This document shows positions 8,697 through 53,655 of a stretch of DNA of 64,000 nucleotides, in pieces (the stretch's first letter is position 1; each line of letters begins with the position of its first letter). The notes beneath the pieces were generated by a model that saw only the letters and a program-made list of their open reading frames with translations, searched no databases and was not told the origin of the DNA. Source of the DNA: Candidatus Levybacteria bacterium RIFCSPHIGHO2_01_FULL_40_16 (lineage in GTDB: Bacteria > Patescibacteriota > Microgenomatia > Levybacterales > UBA12049). The stretch covers positions 89,975 to 153,974 of the forward strand of contig MFNS01000007.1 of NCBI GenBank assembly GCA_001783805.1. Reading direction: 5' to 3'. The translations under genes and the position numbers were made by a program.

Positions 8697-8825
8697 AAAT
8701 TGTTAAGGAAATAATGTTGATAGTTGAGGTTTTGTGGCAAATAACAATATGAATGTCAAAGTAATAGCTACCTTATTTTGCATATCTTAACAAAATCCCA
8801 ACATGGCCAGATTAAGAAAAATCGG

Positions 8826-8930
8826 CTCCTCCGAGAGGATTCGAACCTCTAACCTTGTCCTTAACAGGGACCTGCTCTACCTGCCCGCAATCGCTGAAGC
8901 GATAGCTTCTGCAGGCGGGCCATTGAGCTA
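8826..8930 (-). pseudogene. tRNA-Asn relic: nt 8-17 and nt 18-73 of tRNA-Asn separated by a 40-nt palindromic element in the D-loop; 5' acceptor strand missing
   Basis: 8826-8880 is identical to the 3' 55 nt of the intact tRNA-Asn at 8946-9000. 8921-8930 equals TAGCTCAATG of the D-arm. 8881-8920 is the inserted palindrome. Confidence 0.6.
8881..8920. repeat. 40-nt GC-rich palindromic element (copy b); outer stem GCCCGC/GCGGGC, inner hairpin ATCGC-TGAA-GCGAT
   Basis: Differs from the copy at 9298-9337 at 2 positions, one of them a compensatory C-to-T giving a G-U pair. Same termini as the element in ruvC (49641-49676). Confidence 0.7.
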
Positions 8931-8945
8931 CTATTAGCAATTCTG

Positions 8946-9017
8946 CTCCTCCGAGAGGATTCGAACCTCTAACCTTGTCCTTAACAGGGACCTGCTCTAC
9001 CATTGAGCTACAGAGGA
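8946..9017 (-). tRNA. tRNA-Asn (anticodon GUU), intact
   Basis: Folded by hand. Acceptor UCCUCUG/CGGAGGA with G73, D-arm GCUC-AAUGGUA-GAGC, anticodon loop CUGUUAA, T-arm AGAGG-UUCGAAU-CCUCU. Ends match E. coli tRNA-Asn. Confidence 0.85.
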
Positions 9018-9031
9018 GCAGAATTGCTAGA

Positions 9032-9280
9032 CTACTTTAATCTTCCTTTTAAATATTTTCTACCAAATCCTGTTTTCAGCGCCTTTTCTCTTTTAATAGC
9101 GTTTCCCCTTGATAAACATGCCTCATAGTATACCAAAACCATAGGCGACCTGCTTTTAGTTGCTGTTACTTTTCCCCTGTTGTGTTCTGATACTCTTTCA
9201 ACTAAATCATCGGACCAACCGATATACAAATTATTATCCTTTTTACTTTGCAAAACGTATGTATAAAAAAATTTTGCCAC
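9032..9280 (-). CDS. Small GIY-YIG nuclease family protein (YhbQ/UPF0213-like, 82 aa)
   Basis: FYTYVLQS...NLYIGWSDDLVERVSEHN...YYE...AIKREKALK is a typical small GIY-YIG domain. The likely start is GTG at 9280. The ORF-track ATG at 9340 is created by the tRNA D-loop/palindrome junction and is probably not used. Confidence 0.8.
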   Translation of the reverse strand: MAKFFYTYVLQSKKDNNLYIGWSDDLVERVSEHNRGKVTATKSRSPMVLVYYEACLSRGNAIKREKALKTGFGRKYLKGRLK

Positions 9281-9293
9281 ATCTGCACACTTT

Positions 9294-9354
9294 CTACCTG
9301 CCCGCAATCGCTGAAGTGATAGCTTCTGCAAGCGGGCCATTGAGCTACAGAGGA
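9294..9354 (-). pseudogene. tRNA-Asn 5' fragment (nt 1-17) + 40-nt palindromic element (copy a) + GTAG (nt 18-21), truncated by the GIY-YIG gene
   Basis: 9338-9354 is the reverse complement of UCCUCUGUAGCUCAAUG. 9298-9337 is the palindrome. 9294-9297 is GTAG of the D-loop. Confidence 0.55.
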
Positions 9355-10164: not shown

Positions 10165-10307
10165 TTTTATAATAAATTCTAGCTTCGCTCCATCCAGAGG
10201 CGGGCAAGCATCAGGCGGAGCTGCGTAAGACTATAACCCCAAGCTGGAATCGATCGACTCGGGACGTATAATTGACATCAAAGTTTAAAAGGACTATAAA
10301 CTAGTTA

Positions 10308-12211: not shown

Positions 12212-12300
12212 GTTAAAATAGCCCTTCTGTAAACTCAGGGTAAACTGTCCCTCCAGAGGCGGGCAAGCATTCGGCGGATAAAATTAGCTTCAAATCTCTT

Positions 12301-31949: not shown

Positions 31950-32036
31950 ATTCCAAACCTCCCGCTTGCCCTTCCGTAGCCTTGGCGAAGGAGGGAAAAA
32001 ACCGTTTTCATATTATTCCTAGTTTATCACAATTTA

Positions 32037-47847: not shown

Positions 47848-49233
47848 TTACTTATTTAATCTTTCGACATCCCTCCAGCCAATATCTTTTCTATAATGCA
47901 AATTATTTCCCTCAACACTTATCTTTGACATTGCCCGATATGCCATTCTTCTCGCTTCAACAATATCTTTACCTTCGGCAACTATATAGAATAATCTTCC
48001 GCCCCAAGCATAATATTTACCATTAATTTCTTTGATTGCGCCGCTATATAATTTTACGCCATCCATCTTTTTTATTTCTTCCAGCCCAAAAATTTGTCTT
48101 CCTTTTGCCCACCTATACTCTTCTTCTCTTGGGTAGCCCTTTGATGCTCCTGTCACCGCTACTCTTACTCTTTTGTCATGACCAATCTTTACTTTAGAAA
48201 TATCCCCGCTTGAAACTGCTTTTCCCAACTCAAATAAATCACCTTTCAATCCCGGAAGAATGGCTTGCGCCTCGGGATCACCCCAACGAGCATTAAATTC
48301 AATAACGTATGGTTTCTGTTCATAAATATATCCAAAATTATCCGAACCTTTTATTTTATTTATTGCCATCCCCCCAAAATACAAAACGCCTTCATATGGC
48401 ATGCCTCTTTCTTTTAGCTCTGCTAATACTTTTCCTATTATTTCCTTGCTTTCTTTCATTAATCCAGGTGTAGCAAGAAGAGTTGGACTGCTACAGCCCA
48501 TGCTGCCGGTATTCTCCCCCTCATCGAAGTTATTTTCCCTCTTATAATCTTGGGCGTTGCCTAAAACTCGATAATGTTCACCGTCACTAATAACAAACAA
48601 GGAAAACTCTTCTCCCTGACTGCCGGCATCACCTTCTAGCCAGTCTTCAATTAAAAAAACTTTGCCGGCTTTCATTTTCGTCACTTCTATAATTTTTTCT
48701 TTAGCTTCCCCTCTATCTTTGGCTGCTTTCGCTCCTTTTCCGCCAGCCAAAAATGCAGCTTTTATAAATCTTGGCTTATTTGACTCCAAATCCATACGTG
48801 TTAAGGCAAAATTTAACTCATCTCTGGTATAAATATCAAAGCCAGGTTGAGGAAGTTGCAAGTGAAAACCAAGTTTTCTGGCAAATGCTTTATCCCATTC
48901 AATTCTGCCGGCTCCCCGAGTTGGCCCAACAACTGAAATTCCTTTCCTAATCAGGGCGTCTACTAGACCTGCCTCAACTGCCCTATCTTCGGCAACATCA
49001 ACTAAATCCACATCTTTTTGCTTACAAAGATAAACTATTTCTTTTACACTGGTTGTCTTCAGCTGAGGATAAATTTGCACCGGTTTATCTGTATTTAATT
49101 TCATCAAATCATTACCGGGAACTGCAATAACTTTCCCCACATGATTGCTCTGCGCGTATTTATCAACCAGTGCCGCGCCTCTTCCTCCGCCCTCAACAAC
49201 CAGGACTGTATTTCCCGTACTTCTTTCTTTCAT
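47848..49233 (-). CDS. purD: Phosphoribosylamine--glycine ligase
   Basis: ATP-grasp PurD pattern (VLVVEGGGRGAALVDKYAQS...). Size 461 aa. Confidence 0.85.
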   Translation of the reverse strand: MKERSTGNTVLVVEGGGRGAALVDKYAQSNHVGKVIAVPGNDLMKLNTDKPVQIYPQLKTTSVKEIVYLCKQKDVDLVDVAEDRAVEAGLVDALIRKGISVVGPTRGAGRIEWDKAFARKLGFHLQLPQPGFDIYTRDELNFALTRMDLESNKPRFIKAAFLAGGKGAKAAKDRGEAKEKIIEVTKMKAGKVFLIEDWLEGDAGSQGEEFSLFVISDGEHYRVLGNAQDYKRENNFDEGENTGSMGCSSPTLLATPGLMKESKEIIGKVLAELKERGMPYEGVLYFGGMAINKIKGSDNFGYIYEQKPYVIEFNARWGDPEAQAILPGLKGDLFELGKAVSSGDISKVKIGHDKRVRVAVTGASKGYPREEEYRWAKGRQIFGLEEIKKMDGVKLYSGAIKEINGKYYAWGGRLFYIVAEGKDIVEARRMAYRAMSKISVEGNNLHYRKDIGWRDVERLNK

Positions 49234-49751
49234 TTCAATTTTTTATTTGTAAACGAGTGGGTTAGGGCGGCGGCGATGGCGTCGACAGTATCGTCTAATT
49301 TCGGCAATTCTTTTAATTTAAGTATTGTTTTGACCATTCTGCCGACTTGAGCTTTGTCCGCTTTGCCATACCCGGTCACTGCAATCTTAATTTGCAAAGG
49401 CGTGTAGGAAGCAACCGGAATTTTTTGCATTGCGCCGGCCAAAATGATCACTCCCCTGGCCTCTCCGACTTTAAAAGCAGTTTTGGCATTATTAGTAAAA
49501 AACAACTCTTCAATTGCCAAAACATCCGGCTGATATTTTTTAATCAGCGCGCAAACTTGTTTGTAAACATCAACCAACCGCTCTTGCGAATCCTTATCTT
49601 TTGAAGTTTCTATGCATCCGCAACTTTGAACTTTGAACTTCCCGCCTGCCACGCTTTGCGAGGCATTGCGGGCAGGTGAACTTTGAACTTCCAACACCGC
49701 CCATCCCACCCTGGCATATCCCGGATCAATCCCAAGTATCACCATAGACAA
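49230..49751 (-). CDS. ruvC: Crossover junction endodeoxyribonuclease RuvC (with an in-frame palindromic-element insertion in the beta1-beta2 loop)
   Basis: ILGIDPGYARVGWAVLE...AIEELFF...ARGV RuvC motifs. The insert encodes VQSSPARNASQSVAGGKFK. Confidence 0.9.
   Translation of the reverse strand: MSMVILGIDPGYARVGWAVLEVQSSPARNASQSVAGGKFKVQSCGCIETSKDKDSQERLVDVYKQVCALIKKYQPDVLAIEELFFTNNAKTAFKVGEARGVIILAGAMQKIPVASYTPLQIKIAVTGYGKADKAQVGRMVKTILKLKELPKLDDTVDAIAAALTHSFTNKKLK
49641..49676. repeat. 36-nt GC-rich palindromic element inside ruvC, flanked by 15-16-nt direct repeats (GAACTTTGAACTTCC at 49628-49642 and 49678-49692)
   Basis: The reverse complement, CTGCCCGCAATGCCTCGCAAAGCGTGGCAGGCGGG, shares both termini with the tRNA-Asn D-loop inserts. 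Confidence 0.7.
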
Positions 49752-50585: not shown

Positions 50586-51071
50586 TTACTTGTTTACGAG
50601 GAATTTTTCCAACCTTTGTCCGTCTGTAGAGCTTGGATCCAAAATAAGCCCTTTTTCAAGGTGCGTTTTTGCCTTTGAGGTATTTCCCAGCTTATACTCC
50701 AAAATAGAAGCTTGAAAATAGGCAATCGGATAATTTTGGCGCTTGGAAATAAAGTCTTTCCAGAAATTTAATTCTCTATTTAAAATTATTCTTTGGGAGT
50801 CAATATCTTGTTTTATCTGTAAATTTTCTTGAAAATCCAGTCCCACAATAATAACCGCCACGATAAAAATAAAGACAACAAAAACCCTCAAGGCTCCCCC
50901 ATAGAGCTTAATCAGGGTTACATGATTAATTTTTGGTAAAGAAAATTTAAAATTAACGGGTTTGCCCGCCGAAGCTTTAACGGATGCGGGAATAGCTCGG
51001 GAATTACTCGGGGATTGTTTGTTTTTTCCGCCAGCTGGCGGACTTTTCTTTTTTATGTTCTTAAACTTCAT
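50586..51071 (-). CDS. Hypothetical membrane-anchored protein with a TPR-like C-terminus
   Basis: One TM. 4-nt overlap with the valS stop. Confidence 0.4.
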   Translation of the reverse strand: MKFKNIKKKSPPAGGKNKQSPSNSRAIPASVKASAGKPVNFKFSLPKINHVTLIKLYGGALRVFVVFIFIVAVIIVGLDFQENLQIKQDIDSQRIILNRELNFWKDFISKRQNYPIAYFQASILEYKLGNTSKAKTHLEKGLILDPSSTDGQRLEKFLVNK

Positions 51072-53266
51072 AATGAGGGTTTACCCGCCGACTTGTCCGC
51101 CAAAGCTTTAGCGACGGCGAAGGCGGGCCATTTATCAATCATTACGGATTCCCCAAACTTAAATCTCTGATAAATTTCTTCTGTCACAAAAGGCATAAAA
51201 GGATGCAATAATTTGAGAAGTGTTAAGTATAATGTATTAAGTATTATGTATGATTCAGGATTAAGTCGATCTTTGATGTCTTCTATGTATTTATCAGCGA
51301 ATTCGTGCCAGGCAAATTCATATAAACTTTCTGCGGCATAGTTAAAATTATAAGATTCCAGATGTTTAGTTATTTCGTTAGTTAGCTGCTTAGTTTTTTC
51401 AATCATCTCCCTGTCATTATTATTCTTCGCCAATTCCAATAATTCTTCTATTGAATTTTGCTTGTCCGCCGACTTGTCCGCCAAAGCTTTAGCGACGGTG
51501 GAAGCTTTAGCGAAGGCGGAAGTTCGGTTCATTTCGATGAACCGCCCCATATTCCACAGTTTATTGGTAAACTTCCGCGTCGCGTCCAACTTGGGATAGG
51601 ACAAAGCCTGATCATTACCCGTGGCATTTCCGTAAATTAGGGCAAAACGTACCGCATCTGCCCCGTATTGATCAACCAACTCCAAAGGATTAATCGCATT
51701 GCCCTTGGACTTGCTCATCTTTTTCCCATATGGGTCATTAACCAAACCGTGCAAAACAACATTTCTAAACGGTACCTTCCCTGTTCTATAGATTCCTACC
51801 ATTACCATTCTTGCAACCCACCAACGTAGAATATCGTACCCTGTTTCCATTACGGAAGTTGGATAGAATCTATCAAAAAAACCACCTGATCCATCACAAT
51901 CGCAATTTGCCATTAAAGTTGAAAATGGCCATTGGGCTGATGAAAACCAAGTGTCAAAAGTATCCTCGTCCTGTTTCCAACTTTCTCCCTTTGGCGCTTC
52001 ACCCTCTGTAATCACCCATTCTCCGGTTTTCGAATTTTTCCAGGCTGGGATTCTTATCCCCCACACAATCTGACGACTAATGTTCCAATCTCTGATATTC
52101 TCCAAAAAGTCTAGATAAGTTTTTTCAAATCTTTGCGGATGAAATTTAATTTCTCCTTTTTTAAGAACATCTATCGCGGTTTTTGCCAATCTTTCCATTT
52201 TTACAAACCACTGCGGCAAAAGCATTGGTTCAATGGTTGTCTCACACTTATAACAAGTTTCTATAGTATGAATGTAGTTTTCATCAATCTTTTCTATCAA
52301 TCCCATCTTTTGCATGTCTTCTGCAACTGCCTTTCTTGCCTGTCTGACATACAATCCTTGATACTTTCCTGTTTTTTCATTGAGTTTTCCGTCGAAGCCA
52401 ATTACTTGAACAATATCTAAGTTGTGCTTTTTGCCTATTTCAAAATCTTTCATGTCATGAGCCGGAGTCACTTTAGCAACGCCGGTTCCAAAATTTGGAT
52501 CGATTAAATCGTCTGCGATAACCTTTACCTTAAATTTGCCATTTACTCCTTGCACTTCAATTTCTTTCCCAACCCATTTCTGATAACGCTTATCCTCTGG
52601 ATTAATTGCCACAGCGGTGTCTCCAAACTTTGTTTCCGGTCTAACTGTTGCCAAAACAAAAGGTCCGTATTTTATGTAATAAAAGGGGTCTTTTTGCTCT
52701 TTGTGATTAACCTCAAGATCCGAAAAAGAAGTGCCGCACTTGGTACAGTAATTTACAAGCCTATCTCCTCTGTAAATAAATCCTTCATCATACAGCTTTT
52801 TGAAGGTCTGATAAGCTATTTTGATGATGTCTTGATCAAGAGTAAATTTTTTCCGAGACCAATCCAGAGAGAAACCAAGTCTACGCAATTGACTCTCCAT
52901 TCCTCCCCTGTTCTCTTGTACAAAATCCCAAATCATTTTATAAAGAGTATTCCTATCAAAGTCAAACCTGGACTTACCTTCCTTCTGTAGTTTTTTTTCA
53001 AAAACAAACTGTGTTTCAAATCCGGCATGATCTGCTCCGGGAAGCCAAAGAGCTGCATTCCCGAGCATGCGGTGATAACGAATTAAAACATCTTCAACTA
53101 CATACATTGCGTGACCAAAATGAAGGGGTGCATTGGCATTTGGAGGCGGCAAAATAATGCAGTAAGGTTTACCTTTCGGATTTACTTCCGGTTTGAAATA
53201 ACCTTTTTCTTCCCAAACTTTATAGATTTTTTCCTCAACATCCTTGTGATTATAAACTTTGTCCAT
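51068..53266 (-). CDS. valS: Valyl-tRNA synthetase (compact, 732 aa) carrying two copies of an in-frame repeat (VAKALADKSA)
   Basis: PPPNANAPLHFGHA (HIGH region, ValRS-like PPPNxxG) and KMSKSKGN. Repeats at 51086-51118 and 51463-51495. Confidence 0.75.
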   Translation of the reverse strand: MDKVYNHKDVEEKIYKVWEEKGYFKPEVNPKGKPYCIILPPPNANAPLHFGHAMYVVEDVLIRYHRMLGNAALWLPGADHAGFETQFVFEKKLQKEGKSRFDFDRNTLYKMIWDFVQENRGGMESQLRRLGFSLDWSRKKFTLDQDIIKIAYQTFKKLYDEGFIYRGDRLVNYCTKCGTSFSDLEVNHKEQKDPFYYIKYGPFVLATVRPETKFGDTAVAINPEDKRYQKWVGKEIEVQGVNGKFKVKVIADDLIDPNFGTGVAKVTPAHDMKDFEIGKKHNLDIVQVIGFDGKLNEKTGKYQGLYVRQARKAVAEDMQKMGLIEKIDENYIHTIETCYKCETTIEPMLLPQWFVKMERLAKTAIDVLKKGEIKFHPQRFEKTYLDFLENIRDWNISRQIVWGIRIPAWKNSKTGEWVITEGEAPKGESWKQDEDTFDTWFSSAQWPFSTLMANCDCDGSGGFFDRFYPTSVMETGYDILRWWVARMVMVGIYRTGKVPFRNVVLHGLVNDPYGKKMSKSKGNAINPLELVDQYGADAVRFALIYGNATGNDQALSYPKLDATRKFTNKLWNMGRFIEMNRTSAFAKASTVAKALADKSADKQNSIEELLELAKNNNDREMIEKTKQLTNEITKHLESYNFNYAAESLYEFAWHEFADKYIEDIKDRLNPESYIILNTLYLTLLKLLHPFMPFVTEEIYQRFKFGESVMIDKWPAFAVAKALADKSAGKPSL

Positions 53267-53531: not shown

Positions 53532-53655
53532 AATTAATTGTTCACTTTATATCACAACTGCAAATTCATTGTCAACTTGAGAAATCGATTCCCGAAGATT
53601 TAACGAAGAATTCCCTACTTCGGCCGCCATAGCTTTAGCGACGGCGGCAAGAGGC

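What the first reader, a model, noticed from the sequence alone, without database searches (positions are those of the whole stretch)
49622..49692. Family of short GC-rich palindromic elements inserted in-frame in ruvC and into the tRNA-Asn D-loop (RPE-like selfish DNA)
The 36-nt segment inside ruvC (49641-49676) has the same termini as the two tRNA-Asn D-loop inserts (8881-8920, 9298-9337). Its reverse complement begins CTGCCCGCAAT and ends GCAGGCGGG, so it belongs to the same family.

It is flanked by a 15-16-nt direct repeat (GAACTTTGAACTTCC), which looks like a target-site duplication. It sits in the beta1-beta2 loop of RuvC, adding about 17 codons without breaking the frame.

This recalls Rickettsia palindromic elements that colonise protein-coding genes in-frame. 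Finding the same element in a tRNA D-loop and inside a recombination gene within one 64-kb window suggests an active or recently active miniature element in this genome.
Basis: seen in the sequence. Interest (0 to 1): 0.75.

Follow-up and report, generated by a model that had tools for sequence, protein, structure and literature searches.

The report
Mobile 36-base hairpin inside ruvC
A 36-base GC-rich, hairpin-forming piece of selfish DNA sits in frame inside the DNA-repair gene ruvC; it belongs to a large family, not found in the literature I could search, that peppers essential genes of ultra-small (CPR) bacteria and lies next to a small GIY-YIG nuclease gene upstream of tRNA genes.

Summary
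The element is real. Window 49641-49676 is a discrete 36-nt insertion (12 codons, PARNASQSVAGG) in ruvC. 108 of 121 close orthologues lack it.

- The 15-nt flanking "target-site duplication" is a pre-existing heptamer repeat, G(AAGTTCA)4AAGTTG, that the element splits. Empty alleles carry it intact, so there is no duplication.
- The insert adds 12 codons, not 17.
- It lies in the beta2-beta3 hairpin, not beta1-beta2.

The same termini (C|CTGCCCGCAAT...GCAGGCGGG) occur in at least 119 genome stretches, mostly Patescibacteria but also Verrucomicrobia, Kiritimatiellia and Lentisphaerae, and in 15 viral stretches.

Copies inside long ORFs are 36 or 39 nt long, so they are translated. They sit in GyrA, GluRS, LepA, ATP synthase gamma and a Mur ligase. 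The inner hairpin shows compensatory base changes.

The two "tRNA-Asn D-loop" copies lie in truncated tRNA fragments, not in the working gene. They belong to a conserved module: tRNA 5' fragment with the element, an 82-aa GIY-YIG nuclease gene, then an intact tRNA. Of 80 metagenome loci fetched by the protein alone, 69 carry the element 10-69 nt upstream of the gene.

Verdict: an RPE/REP-like mobile mini-element family absent from Rfam and from the papers searched. The mobilising enzyme is unproven; the GIY-YIG nuclease is the leading candidate.

The parts
49641..49676 (-). Element E, solo copy: 36 nt, CCTGCCCGCAATGCCTCGCAAAGCGTGGCAGGCGGG on the minus strand. It encodes PARNASQSVAGG, residues 26-37 of the 173-aa ORF.
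   Evidence: Searches show precise presence or absence against orthologues. One search gives a DNA hairpin of -13.3 kcal/mol, z = -3.4.
49230..49745 (-). ruvC (PF02075). The start is probably the ATG at 49745, matching the orthologues; the ORF tool begins at the TTG at 49751.
49622..49640 (.). Half of the pre-existing heptamer tandem repeat (AACTTTG units on the + strand) that the element splits. It is target sequence, not a duplication.
   Evidence: empty alleles L220 and L221 carry the uninterrupted repeat.
49677..49692 (.). The other half of the same pre-existing heptamer repeat.
9297..9336 (+). Element E, 40-nt class, one terminal mismatch. It is inserted after position 18 of an 18-nt tRNA-Asn 5' fragment (9337-9354) and lies 16 nt upstream of the GIY-YIG start codon.
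9035..9280 (-). 82-aa GIY-YIG nuclease gene (catalytic domain only, UPF0213-like) with a GTG start.
8945..9017 (-). Intact tRNA-Asn(GTT) with no element: the functional copy of the module.
   Evidence: (Rfam tRNA, 67.5 bits).
8880..8919 (+). Element E, 40-nt class, at the same D-loop position of a 5'-truncated tRNA-Asn copy (8825-8930). That copy lacks the 5' acceptor strand.
   Evidence: 56-nt direct repeat D6; partial tRNA match, 24 bits, below threshold.

Best explanation
The 36 nt in ruvC are a solo copy of a mobile, non-coding, quasi-palindromic DNA element, called E here. E has a 4-nt tail, CCTG, followed by a GC-rich hairpin CCCGC...GCGGG. Copies are 36, 39 or 40 nt long.

Shown:
- E enters DNA precisely, adding only its own bases, with no target duplication or loss. 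It can sit in either orientation, usually after a purine, and more often than chance inside short tandem repeats.
- In ruvC it landed in the middle of a heptamer repeat that encodes the tip of the beta2-beta3 hairpin.
- It stays in the gene and is translated as a 12-residue loop.
- Across genomes, copies inside long ORFs have lengths divisible by 3, lack stop codons, and mostly use the frame PARNAxxSxAGG. This is the pattern expected if selection filters insertions after the event.
- The family's full-context copies lie in a conserved module: tRNA 5' fragment with E, a GIY-YIG nuclease gene, then an intact tRNA or tmRNA.

Inferred:
- The 82-aa nuclease has a catalytic domain only and a distant Slx1-like similarity. 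I propose that it recognises the E hairpin or its ends, and structured DNA such as tRNA D-arms and slipped repeats.
- It would supply the breaks through which E is cut or copied out and ligated in.
- Solo copies such as the ruvC one would then be non-autonomous passengers of that system.
- Phage-like contigs carry E and may help it spread between phyla.

Probabilities: mobile selfish element that is translated, about 0.85. GIY-YIG as the mobilising enzyme, about 0.35-0.4.
For: Presence and absence at ruvC:
- 108 of 121 RuvC orthologues (at least 72% identity) have the 10-residue empty hairpin. Five carry E, one of them with a second 45-nt E-like element nested in the loop of the first.
- The DNA junctions are exact and show no duplication.
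- E-bearing alleles fall in four separate places of an NJ tree. Their nearest neighbours are empty; the window's nearest is P0007 at 93%.

The family:
The size classes are 35+1, 38+1 and 39+1 nt.
- 15 viral stretches also hold it.

Translation:
- In low-GC loci, 34 of 59 copies with length divisible by 3 lie in ORFs of at least 150 aa. Only 1 of 25 other copies does (Fisher p = 2e-6).
- 26 of 35 coding copies use one frame.
- Hosts include GyrA, GluRS, ATP synthase gamma, a Mur ligase and LepA.

Structure:
- DNA folds have dG of -10 to -13 kcal/mol and z about -3.
- Compensatory changes occur in two inner helices; 0 of 500 shuffles reach the observed covariation score.

GIY-YIG link:
- 69 of 80 metagenome loci fetched by the protein alone have E 10-69 nt upstream of the gene (most within 10-45 nt). 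65 have an intact tRNA within 51 nt downstream.
- In 45 loci the upstream tRNA fragment matches the intact tRNA exactly up to E and resumes at the next base after it.
- The element type tracks the GIY clade.
- The protein is a bare PF01541 domain, nearest to UPF0213 structures and weakly to SLX1.

Target bias:
- Flanking repeats of at least 7 nt occur at 16.5% of sites against 4.7% of control positions (p = 2e-6).
- A purine occupies position -1 in 97 of 121 copies.
Against: - No enzymology exists, and no whole-genome co-occurrence test was possible.
- The GIY-YIG association could arise because the pseudo-tRNA fragment is a favoured or neutral landing pad, or because E stabilises the cassette, rather than because the nuclease moves E.
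- The E next to GIY in this window is the 40-nt class. The ruvC copy is the 36-nt class, with a different interior.
- Viral contigs and high-GC PVC genomes carry E with no such GIY gene in the stretches seen.
- The patchy distribution at ruvC could reflect allele transfer by homologous recombination, or precise loss, rather than repeated insertion. The NJ tree rests on 147 columns and has no support values.
- Some scan hits of odd length in high-GC genomes (Streptomyces, Pseudarthrobacter and others) are probably chance matches of a GC-rich pattern.
- The AlphaFold model is of low confidence (pLDDT 59.6).
Confidence: 0.7

Rival explanations
1. E is mobile, but another activity moves it: an unseen HUH/Y1-type transposase as for REP/IS200, or host replication and repair. 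It sits next to GIY-YIG only because the leftover tRNA 5' fragment made by the GIY cassette is a preferred, selectively neutral target. Alternatively, an E in that fragment stabilises the cassette against deletion between its direct repeats.
For: - E occupies variable positions (7, 9-13, 18-21) and both orientations (31 forward, 38 reverse) within the fragment, as expected for independent secondary insertions.
- Other palindrome families (CCCGCC...GGCGGG) occupy the same fragments.
- E occurs without GIY in viral contigs.
- The layout, a 4-nt tail plus hairpin with no target duplication, is that of REP and IS200/IS605 ends (own knowledge).
Against: - 86% occupancy of a fragment of about 25 nt is hard to reach by passive landing.
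- No other recurrent protein partner was seen.
- The element type correlates with the GIY clade.
- The termini are conserved across phyla, which implies a dedicated protein.
Confidence: 0.35
2. At the ruvC site, E spread among related lineages by homologous recombination: gene conversion or homing of an E-bearing allele together with its flanks. Repeated de novo insertion into the same nucleotide position did not occur.
For: - All four sequenced E-bearing alleles have E at the identical position and orientation, with identical 15-21-nt flanks, although the genes differ by 12-18%.
- The window's closest overall relative, P0007, has a different hairpin sequence, ENGKSKLEVRD.
Against: - The same flanks also occur in empty alleles L220 and L221, so they are not diagnostic of co-conversion.
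- Different insert types hit the same codon.
- This rival is not exclusive of the main explanation, because E must first have inserted somewhere.
Confidence: 0.3
3. The segment is removed or skipped before the protein is made, by RNA splicing or by ribosome bypassing as with the 'byp' GC clusters of yeast mitochondria. In that case frame would not matter.
For: Matching sequence on both sides of the insert could in principle serve as take-off and landing sites. GC-cluster bypass is known in Magnusiomyces mitochondria (own knowledge).
Against: - Copies in ORFs are almost exclusively 36 or 39 nt and free of stop codons: 34 of 59 against 1 of 25. That pattern is expected only if they are read through.
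- Strong frame preference, 26 of 35.
- No Rfam ribozyme or intron match.
Confidence: 0.03
4. It is an ordinary lineage-specific loop of RuvC, a chance similarity, or an assembly artefact, and not a mobile element.
For: None beyond the fact that surface loops vary in length.
Against: - The site is empty in 108 of 121 orthologues.
- Identical termini occur in unrelated genes, genomes and independent assemblies.
- Chance expectation in the window is 0.00.
- Compensatory substitutions occur.
Confidence: 0.02

Closest known systems
Rickettsia palindromic elements (RPEs)
   Same: Palindromic selfish DNA that inserts in frame into unrelated housekeeping genes and is translated as an extra peptide the protein fold tolerates. 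It occurs in a small, AT-rich genome (PMC10969869).
   Different: RPEs are about 100-150 bp, fall into ten families and are confined to Rickettsia. E is 36-40 nt, is shared by several phyla and viral contigs, has a defined protein neighbour (GIY-YIG) and also marks tRNA-gene fragments. Sequence homology was not tested.
REP elements / REPINs with RAYT transposases, and IS200/IS605 ends
   Same: - 20-40-nt GC-rich imperfect palindrome preceded by a conserved tetranucleotide.
- Insertion without target duplication.
- The hairpin is maintained by compensatory change.
- A single associated nuclease-type gene flanked by the element (own knowledge).
   Different: - REPs are extragenic, start with GT[AG]G and pair with an HUH Y1 transposase.
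- E starts with CCTG and is frequently intragenic.
- E pairs with a GIY-YIG domain on one side only, with a tRNA gene on the other.
Mobile GC clusters of yeast mitochondrial DNA (and 'byp' elements)
   Same: GC-rich palindromes of 30-50 bp scattered in an AT-rich genome. They are optional between strains and are sometimes found inside coding sequence (own knowledge).
   Different: These are organellar. Some classes leave short duplications. Byps are bypassed by the ribosome, whereas E is read through.
MITEs (e.g. Correia, ERIC, QMITE)
   Same: Small non-autonomous repeats with inverted termini and stable stem-loops, presumed to be mobilised in trans (PMC10969869).
   Different: MITEs typically exceed 100 bp, are AT-rich and mostly intergenic, derive from IS elements and are flanked by target-site duplications. 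E has no duplication and no related IS.
Free-standing GIY-YIG homing endonuclease genes (e.g. phage T4 SegB in the tRNA gene cluster)
   Same: A GIY-YIG gene parked among or next to tRNA genes and inherited as a selfish cassette (PMC2330249).
   Different: Seg proteins carry a DNA-binding domain, and no hairpin element accompanies them. Here the protein is 82 aa, a catalytic domain only. The cassette also duplicates the tRNA 5' part and carries E.

Membership tests
Rickettsia palindromic elements | Length about 100-150 bp; one of the described RPE sequence families | tested here: not met
   E is 36-40 nt. RPE size is taken from PMC10969869. No sequence comparison with RPE consensus sequences was run.
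Rickettsia palindromic elements | In-frame insertion into unrelated protein-coding genes, translated | tested here: met
Rickettsia palindromic elements | Restricted to Rickettsia | tested here: not met
   The hosts are Patescibacteria and PVC-group MAGs and viral contigs.
REP / REPIN-RAYT | Imperfect GC-rich palindrome of 20-40 nt with a conserved 5' tetranucleotide GT[AG]G | tested here: not met
   Palindrome size and layout are met, but the tetranucleotide is CCTG, not GTAG.
REP / REPIN-RAYT | Extragenic location | tested here: not met
   34 of 59 copies with length divisible by 3 lie inside long ORFs.
REP / REPIN-RAYT | Associated Y1 (HUH) RAYT transposase gene flanked by the repeats | tested here: not met
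   The recurrent neighbour is a PF01541 GIY-YIG protein. Whole genomes were not searched for RAYTs.
MITE | Target-site duplication flanking young copies | tested here: not met
   No duplication at ruvC or in 45 comparisons of tRNA fragment with intact tRNA.
MITE | Terminal inverted repeats and derivation from a related IS | tested here: inconclusive
   The termini CCTGCCCGC and GCAGGCGGG form 9-bp inverted repeats with 2 mismatches. No parent IS was seen.
Free-standing GIY-YIG homing endonuclease cassette | GIY-YIG catalytic domain with intact motifs | tested here: met
   PF01541 at E = 2e-14. The ORF is intact in 80 loci at 44-77% identity.
Free-standing GIY-YIG homing endonuclease cassette | Site-specific cleavage of the cassette-less allele, followed by copying of the gene into it | not testable with these tools
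   This needs enzyme assays or crosses. No cassette-less allele of the same tRNA locus was recovered.
Self-splicing intron / ribozyme (Rfam) | Match to a curated RNA family | tested here: not met
   There are no matches other than tRNA, even at E up to 10.

The most novel reading that the evidence does not exclude
E and the 82-aa GIY-YIG protein form a previously unrecognised kind of bacterial mobile system. It would be the GIY-YIG counterpart of REP/RAYT.

A structure-specific mini-nuclease would park itself upstream of tRNA and tmRNA genes by duplicating their 5' part. It would mobilise a 36-40-nt hairpin that inserts scarlessly, in either orientation, into structured or slipped DNA. The hairpin has colonised essential genes of CPR bacteria in frame and has crossed into PVC bacteria and phages.
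Probability: 0.35. Interest if true: 0.9.

Novelty: new variant of a known kind. Interest (0 to 1): 0.8.

Why it matters
- **Annotation.** The element explains odd GC-rich 12-13-residue inserts such as PARNASHSDAGG in essential CPR proteins, and broken or duplicated tRNA annotations. Both distort gene calling, alignments, phylogenies and structure prediction for a large part of bacterial diversity.
- **Mechanism.** It is one of the smallest mobile DNAs I know of, it inserts without a scar, and it has a candidate single-domain nuclease partner. The long-standing question of how RPE-, REP- and GC-cluster-type elements move becomes directly testable with an 82-aa protein and a 36-nt substrate.
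- **Gene flow.** Near-identical copies in CPR, PVC-group bacteria and viral contigs give a marker for DNA exchange between ultra-small bacteria, their neighbours and phages.
- **Convergence.** Together with Rickettsia and yeast mitochondria, this is a third independent case of GC-rich palindromes invading coding sequence in reduced AT-rich genomes.

Tried and rejected
- **Target-site duplication:** rejected. Empty alleles already contain the repeat.
- **17-codon insert in the beta1-beta2 loop:** rejected.
- **Known RNA family:** Rfam at E up to 10 gave only tRNA.
- **Splicing or ribosome bypass:** rejected on the length and frame statistics.
- **CRISPR repeat, uptake sequence or artefact:** the copies form no arrays, occur at low density, are conserved across phyla and show compensatory changes.
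- **Literature:** searches by sequence, by peptide and by topic found nothing describing the element or the module. The topics were CPR plus palindromic elements, MITE or REP; GIY-YIG plus tRNA or tmRNA; and UPF0213. The paper on Patescibacteria tRNA group I introns concerns position 35/36 and does not mention D-loop hairpins or GIY-YIG.
- **Cultured phage and plasmid collections:** no match.
- **GIY-YIG relatives in viral contigs:** only one partial hit.
- **Loose regular-expression census of variant termini:** too noisy because of register shifts, so abandoned.
- **AlphaFold of RuvC:** low confidence. I used it only for strand order and for the disordered insert.

Full report
**1. What is in the sequence**

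ruvC lies on the minus strand at 49230-49745/49751. On that strand, 49676-49641 reads CCTGCCCGCAATGCCTCGCAAAGCGTGGCAGGCGGG.

The pattern CTGCCCGCAAT-N(10-35)-GCAGGCGGG matches here and at 8881-8919, against 0.00 matches expected in shuffles. A third copy at 9298-9336 has one terminal mismatch.

**2. It is an insertion, and its limits are exact**

A search with RuvC returned 120 orthologues of at least 72% identity. With the window's protein that makes 121 sequences.
- 108 have a 10-residue segment between GWAVLE and CGCIET.
- 5 carry the 12 extra residues (P/S)ARNA(S/T)QSVAGG: the window and P0001 to P0004.
- 6 carry a different 8-residue insert at the same place.
- 1 carries a 6-residue remnant.

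The DNA alignments show the junctions.
- Empty alleles L220 and L221 read GAAGTTCAAAGTTCA|AAGTTCAAAGTTCAAAGTTG.
- Filled alleles have exactly 36 nt at the bar, with nothing duplicated and nothing lost.

The 15-nt "target-site duplication" is thus a pre-existing tandem repeat, G(AAGTTCA)4AAGTTG, which encodes the hairpin EVQSS|KFKVQS. The element splits it between units 2 and 3.

The insert is 12 codons, not 17. E. coli RuvC (1HJR) aligns with a 12-residue gap at this place. In a low-confidence AlphaFold model (mean pLDDT 59.6), residues 25-37 have pLDDT below 50 and lie between strands 14-22 and 39-48. That is the beta2-beta3 hairpin tip.

L121 (P0004) carries a second, 45-nt E-like element nested in the loop of the first. 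L123 (P0012) keeps an 18-nt remnant, CCTCCTCGGTGGGCAGGC.

**3. Distribution at the ruvC site**

I built an NJ tree from 147 columns with the insert region masked. It has no support values. The E-bearing alleles fall in four separate places, and their nearest neighbours are empty; the window's nearest is P0007 at 93%. This fits repeated insertion at one position, allele transfer by recombination, or precise loss. I cannot separate these. The window's copy is identical to that of its closest sequenced relative, L222, so recent activity in this genome is not shown.

**4. The family**

One capped scan of species-representative genomes found at least 119 stretches with the exact termini. They hold 122 copies, in core size classes of 35 nt (52 copies), 38 nt (25), 36 nt (10) and 39 nt (8). 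A further C usually precedes the core. Comparison of filled and empty sites shows that this C belongs to the element, so the full lengths are 36, 39, 37 and 40 nt.

Hosts are mostly Patescibacteria MAGs. Some are high-GC Verrucomicrobia, Kiritimatiellia, Lentisphaerae and Nitrospirota contigs whose copies have the canonical interior.

Odd-length hits in Streptomyces, Pseudarthrobacter and similar genomes are probably chance matches of a GC-rich pattern. This rests on my own estimate of match probability. Some "Gammaproteobacteria" labels on contigs of 33-39% GC are doubtful.

Fifteen viral-contig stretches carry copies, several per contig. Cultured phage and plasmid collections hold none.

**5. 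The copies are translated**

In low-GC loci, 34 of 59 copies with length divisible by 3 lie inside ORFs of at least 150 aa. Only 1 of 25 other copies does (p = 2e-6). Of 35 coding copies, 26 use the frame PARNAxxSxAGG. Five of the six frames of the consensus are open, as read directly from the sequence.

Hosts confirmed by Pfam are GyrA, GluRS, ATP synthase gamma, a Mur ligase and LepA. By eye I also identified UvrC, ribonucleotide reductase, FtsK, RecG (twice), SecA, IleRS, ThrRS and S1. This pattern excludes splicing or bypass as the rule. It fits post-insertion selection for harmless surface loops.

**6. Structure**

Each strand folds as a 4-nt tail (CCTG, or CAGG on the other strand) plus a hairpin. 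The outer stem is CCCGC/GCGGG. As DNA, dG is -10 to -13 kcal/mol and z is about -3.

I tested 26 distinct 40-nt copies.
- The inner helix 14-21/26-33 shows compensatory changes. Pair 17-30 switches between A-U and G-C in 11 sequences.
- The mutually exclusive helix 11-15/20-24 also does. Three of its pairs have 8-9 double changes each.
- In both tests, 0 of 500 shuffles reach the observed covariation score.

A third register, CCTGC/GCAGG, has one compensatory U-A to A-U change (from L139). So the hairpin itself, and not only the sequence, is under selection, and there may be two alternative conformations. I do not know which molecule folds, DNA or RNA. Orientation-independent use (section 7) favours DNA.

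**7. The tRNA copies and the GIY-YIG module**

The two "D-loop" copies lie in truncated tRNA copies, not in the working gene. In tRNA sense, the locus reads:
- tRNA-Asn positions 1-18, then E, then positions 19-22;
- 13 nt;
- an 82-aa GIY-YIG ORF (9280-9035);
- 14 nt;
- the intact tRNA-Asn (9017-8945);
- 14 nt;
- tRNA-Asn positions 8-18, then E, then positions 19-76.

The same order, fragment with E, then GIY, then intact tRNA of the same identity, recurs in the genome loci L046, L093, L048, L051, L119 and L082. L066 has E next to GIY but no tRNA was called there. The tRNAs are Asn, Met, Gln and Lys.

For a sample unbiased towards E, I fetched 80 metagenome loci using the GIY protein alone.
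- 69 have E 10-69 nt upstream of the start codon, most within 10-45 nt.
- 65 have an intact tRNA within 51 nt downstream, and 58 have both.
- Eleven tRNA identities are represented.
- Two loci have a tmRNA gene downstream instead.

In 45 loci the fragment equals the intact tRNA up to E and resumes at the next base. This is again insertion without any scar. E sits at positions 4, 7, 9-13 or 18-21, in either orientation: 31 forward and 38 reverse among the 69 placements.

Loci that lack a canonical E have truncated copies or other CCCGCC...GGCGGG palindromes in the same place. The element type follows the GIY clade.

The protein is a bare PF01541 domain, closest to the UPF0213 structures 1YWL and 1ZG2. 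It has a marginal match to SLX1 (E = 0.44). In the contig that holds P0003, a GIY-YIG gene lies directly upstream of an E-bearing ruvC.

**8. Target**

Position -1 is a purine in 97 of 121 copies. Flanks share a direct repeat of at least 7 nt at 16.5% of sites, against 4.7% of control positions. Examples are heptamer arrays in LepA (L062), IleRS (L058) and ruvC, and a 9-mer array in the viral copies. Other recurrent targets are hairpin loops of E itself (L121, L017, L192) and tRNA D-arms. I infer, but have not shown, that insertion favours DNA able to form slipped or hairpin structures.

**9. Mechanism proposed**

Shown: the element inserts precisely, without duplication and in either orientation. 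It is a structured palindrome and is translated where it sits in genes. It is tightly linked to a GIY-YIG, tRNA-adjacent cassette.

Inferred: the GIY-YIG mini-nuclease recognises the element's ends or hairpin, and structured targets. It makes the breaks through which E is excised or copied and ligated in. Solo copies are non-autonomous. Selection then keeps only in-frame, loop-compatible insertions.

The main rival is that E moves by another activity and merely accumulates in, or stabilises, the pseudo-tRNA fragment created by the cassette.

**10. Comparison and novelty**

Functionally E behaves like Rickettsia palindromic elements, which insert in frame and are translated (PMC10969869). Architecturally it resembles REP or IS200-type hairpins: a tetranucleotide plus a palindrome, with no duplication. 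It also resembles yeast mitochondrial GC clusters. The REP and GC-cluster comparisons rest on my own knowledge.

It fails defining features of each group:
- its size and taxon differ from those of RPEs;
- it lacks the GTAG start, the extragenic location and the RAYT partner of REPs;
- it lacks the target-site duplication and IS parent of MITEs.

Rfam holds no such family, and seven literature searches found no description. I class it as a new variant of a known kind. The GIY-YIG/tRNA/E module may be a new type of mobile system.

Noticed in passing
window 8825-9354: A composite locus. In order: a tRNA-Asn 5' fragment with E; the GIY-YIG gene; the intact tRNA-Asn; and a 5'-truncated tRNA-Asn copy with E. 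It is bracketed by a 56-nt direct repeat (8876-8931 / 9293-9348). This window has a third, E-bearing tRNA copy that the other loci lack.
   Followed up: partly
window 8935-8946 and 9018-9029: The intact tRNA-Asn is flanked by a perfect 12-bp inverted repeat (TAGCAATTCTGC / GCAGAATTGCTA). In the precursor this would extend the acceptor stem to about 19 bp. It was not seen in the other loci.
   Followed up: no
window 50965-50990, 51084-51127, 51466-51505, 53612-53651: Other GC-rich CCCGC...GCGGG hairpin elements: 5 in the window against 0.54 expected. One lies in frame in ORF 50586-51071. Two lie in frame in the valS-like ORF 51068-53266, giving ...AKALADKSA twice, one of them forming the C-terminus. 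One lies just past a stop codon. E appears to be one family of a wider group.
   Followed up: partly
window 10189-10219 / 12248-12278 and 1247-1275 / 31968-31996: Two further pairs of GC-rich short repeats, 90% and 83% identical. Their nature is unknown.
   Followed up: no
window 49622-49692 minus the insert; L220, L221: The tip of the RuvC beta-hairpin is encoded by a perfect heptanucleotide tandem repeat, (AAGTTCA)4. This is odd for coding DNA, since 7 is not a multiple of 3. Similar heptamer arrays flank E in LepA (L062) and IleRS (L058).
   Followed up: partly
RuvC orthologues P0008, P0010, P0011, P0020, P0033, P0067 (L122) and P0012 (L123): The same codon of ruvC holds a different 24-nt GC-rich insert (peptide xLRLRSGQE) in six orthologues scattered over the tree. 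One orthologue holds an 18-nt E-like remnant. The site is a hotspot.
   Followed up: partly
contig of P0003 (JGI 3300075153, no DNA available): A 90-aa GIY-YIG gene lies between the L25 gene and an E-bearing ruvC and overlaps the ruvC start by 4 nt. In the window that spacer is empty.
   Followed up: no
L193 1824-2144, L196 1815-2123: In two divergent GIY loci the gene downstream is a tmRNA gene rather than a tRNA (Rfam, 62 and 139 bits). A CCCGCCCGC-variant palindrome sits at its 5' end.
   Followed up: partly
L128 (likewise L129, L131): Downstream of GIY, the tRNA-Asn appears interrupted right after anticodon position 35. This is the site reported for group I introns of Patescibacteria (PMC13011429). 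ARAGORN does not call it.
   Followed up: no
L206, L211, L214, L207/L216/L219 (viral contigs, GC 0.48-0.54): Several identical E copies per phage-like contig. Most (the recurrent two of three sites per contig) sit inside a short tandem repeat (tctgtgtcc), and no GIY-YIG gene is nearby.
   Followed up: partly
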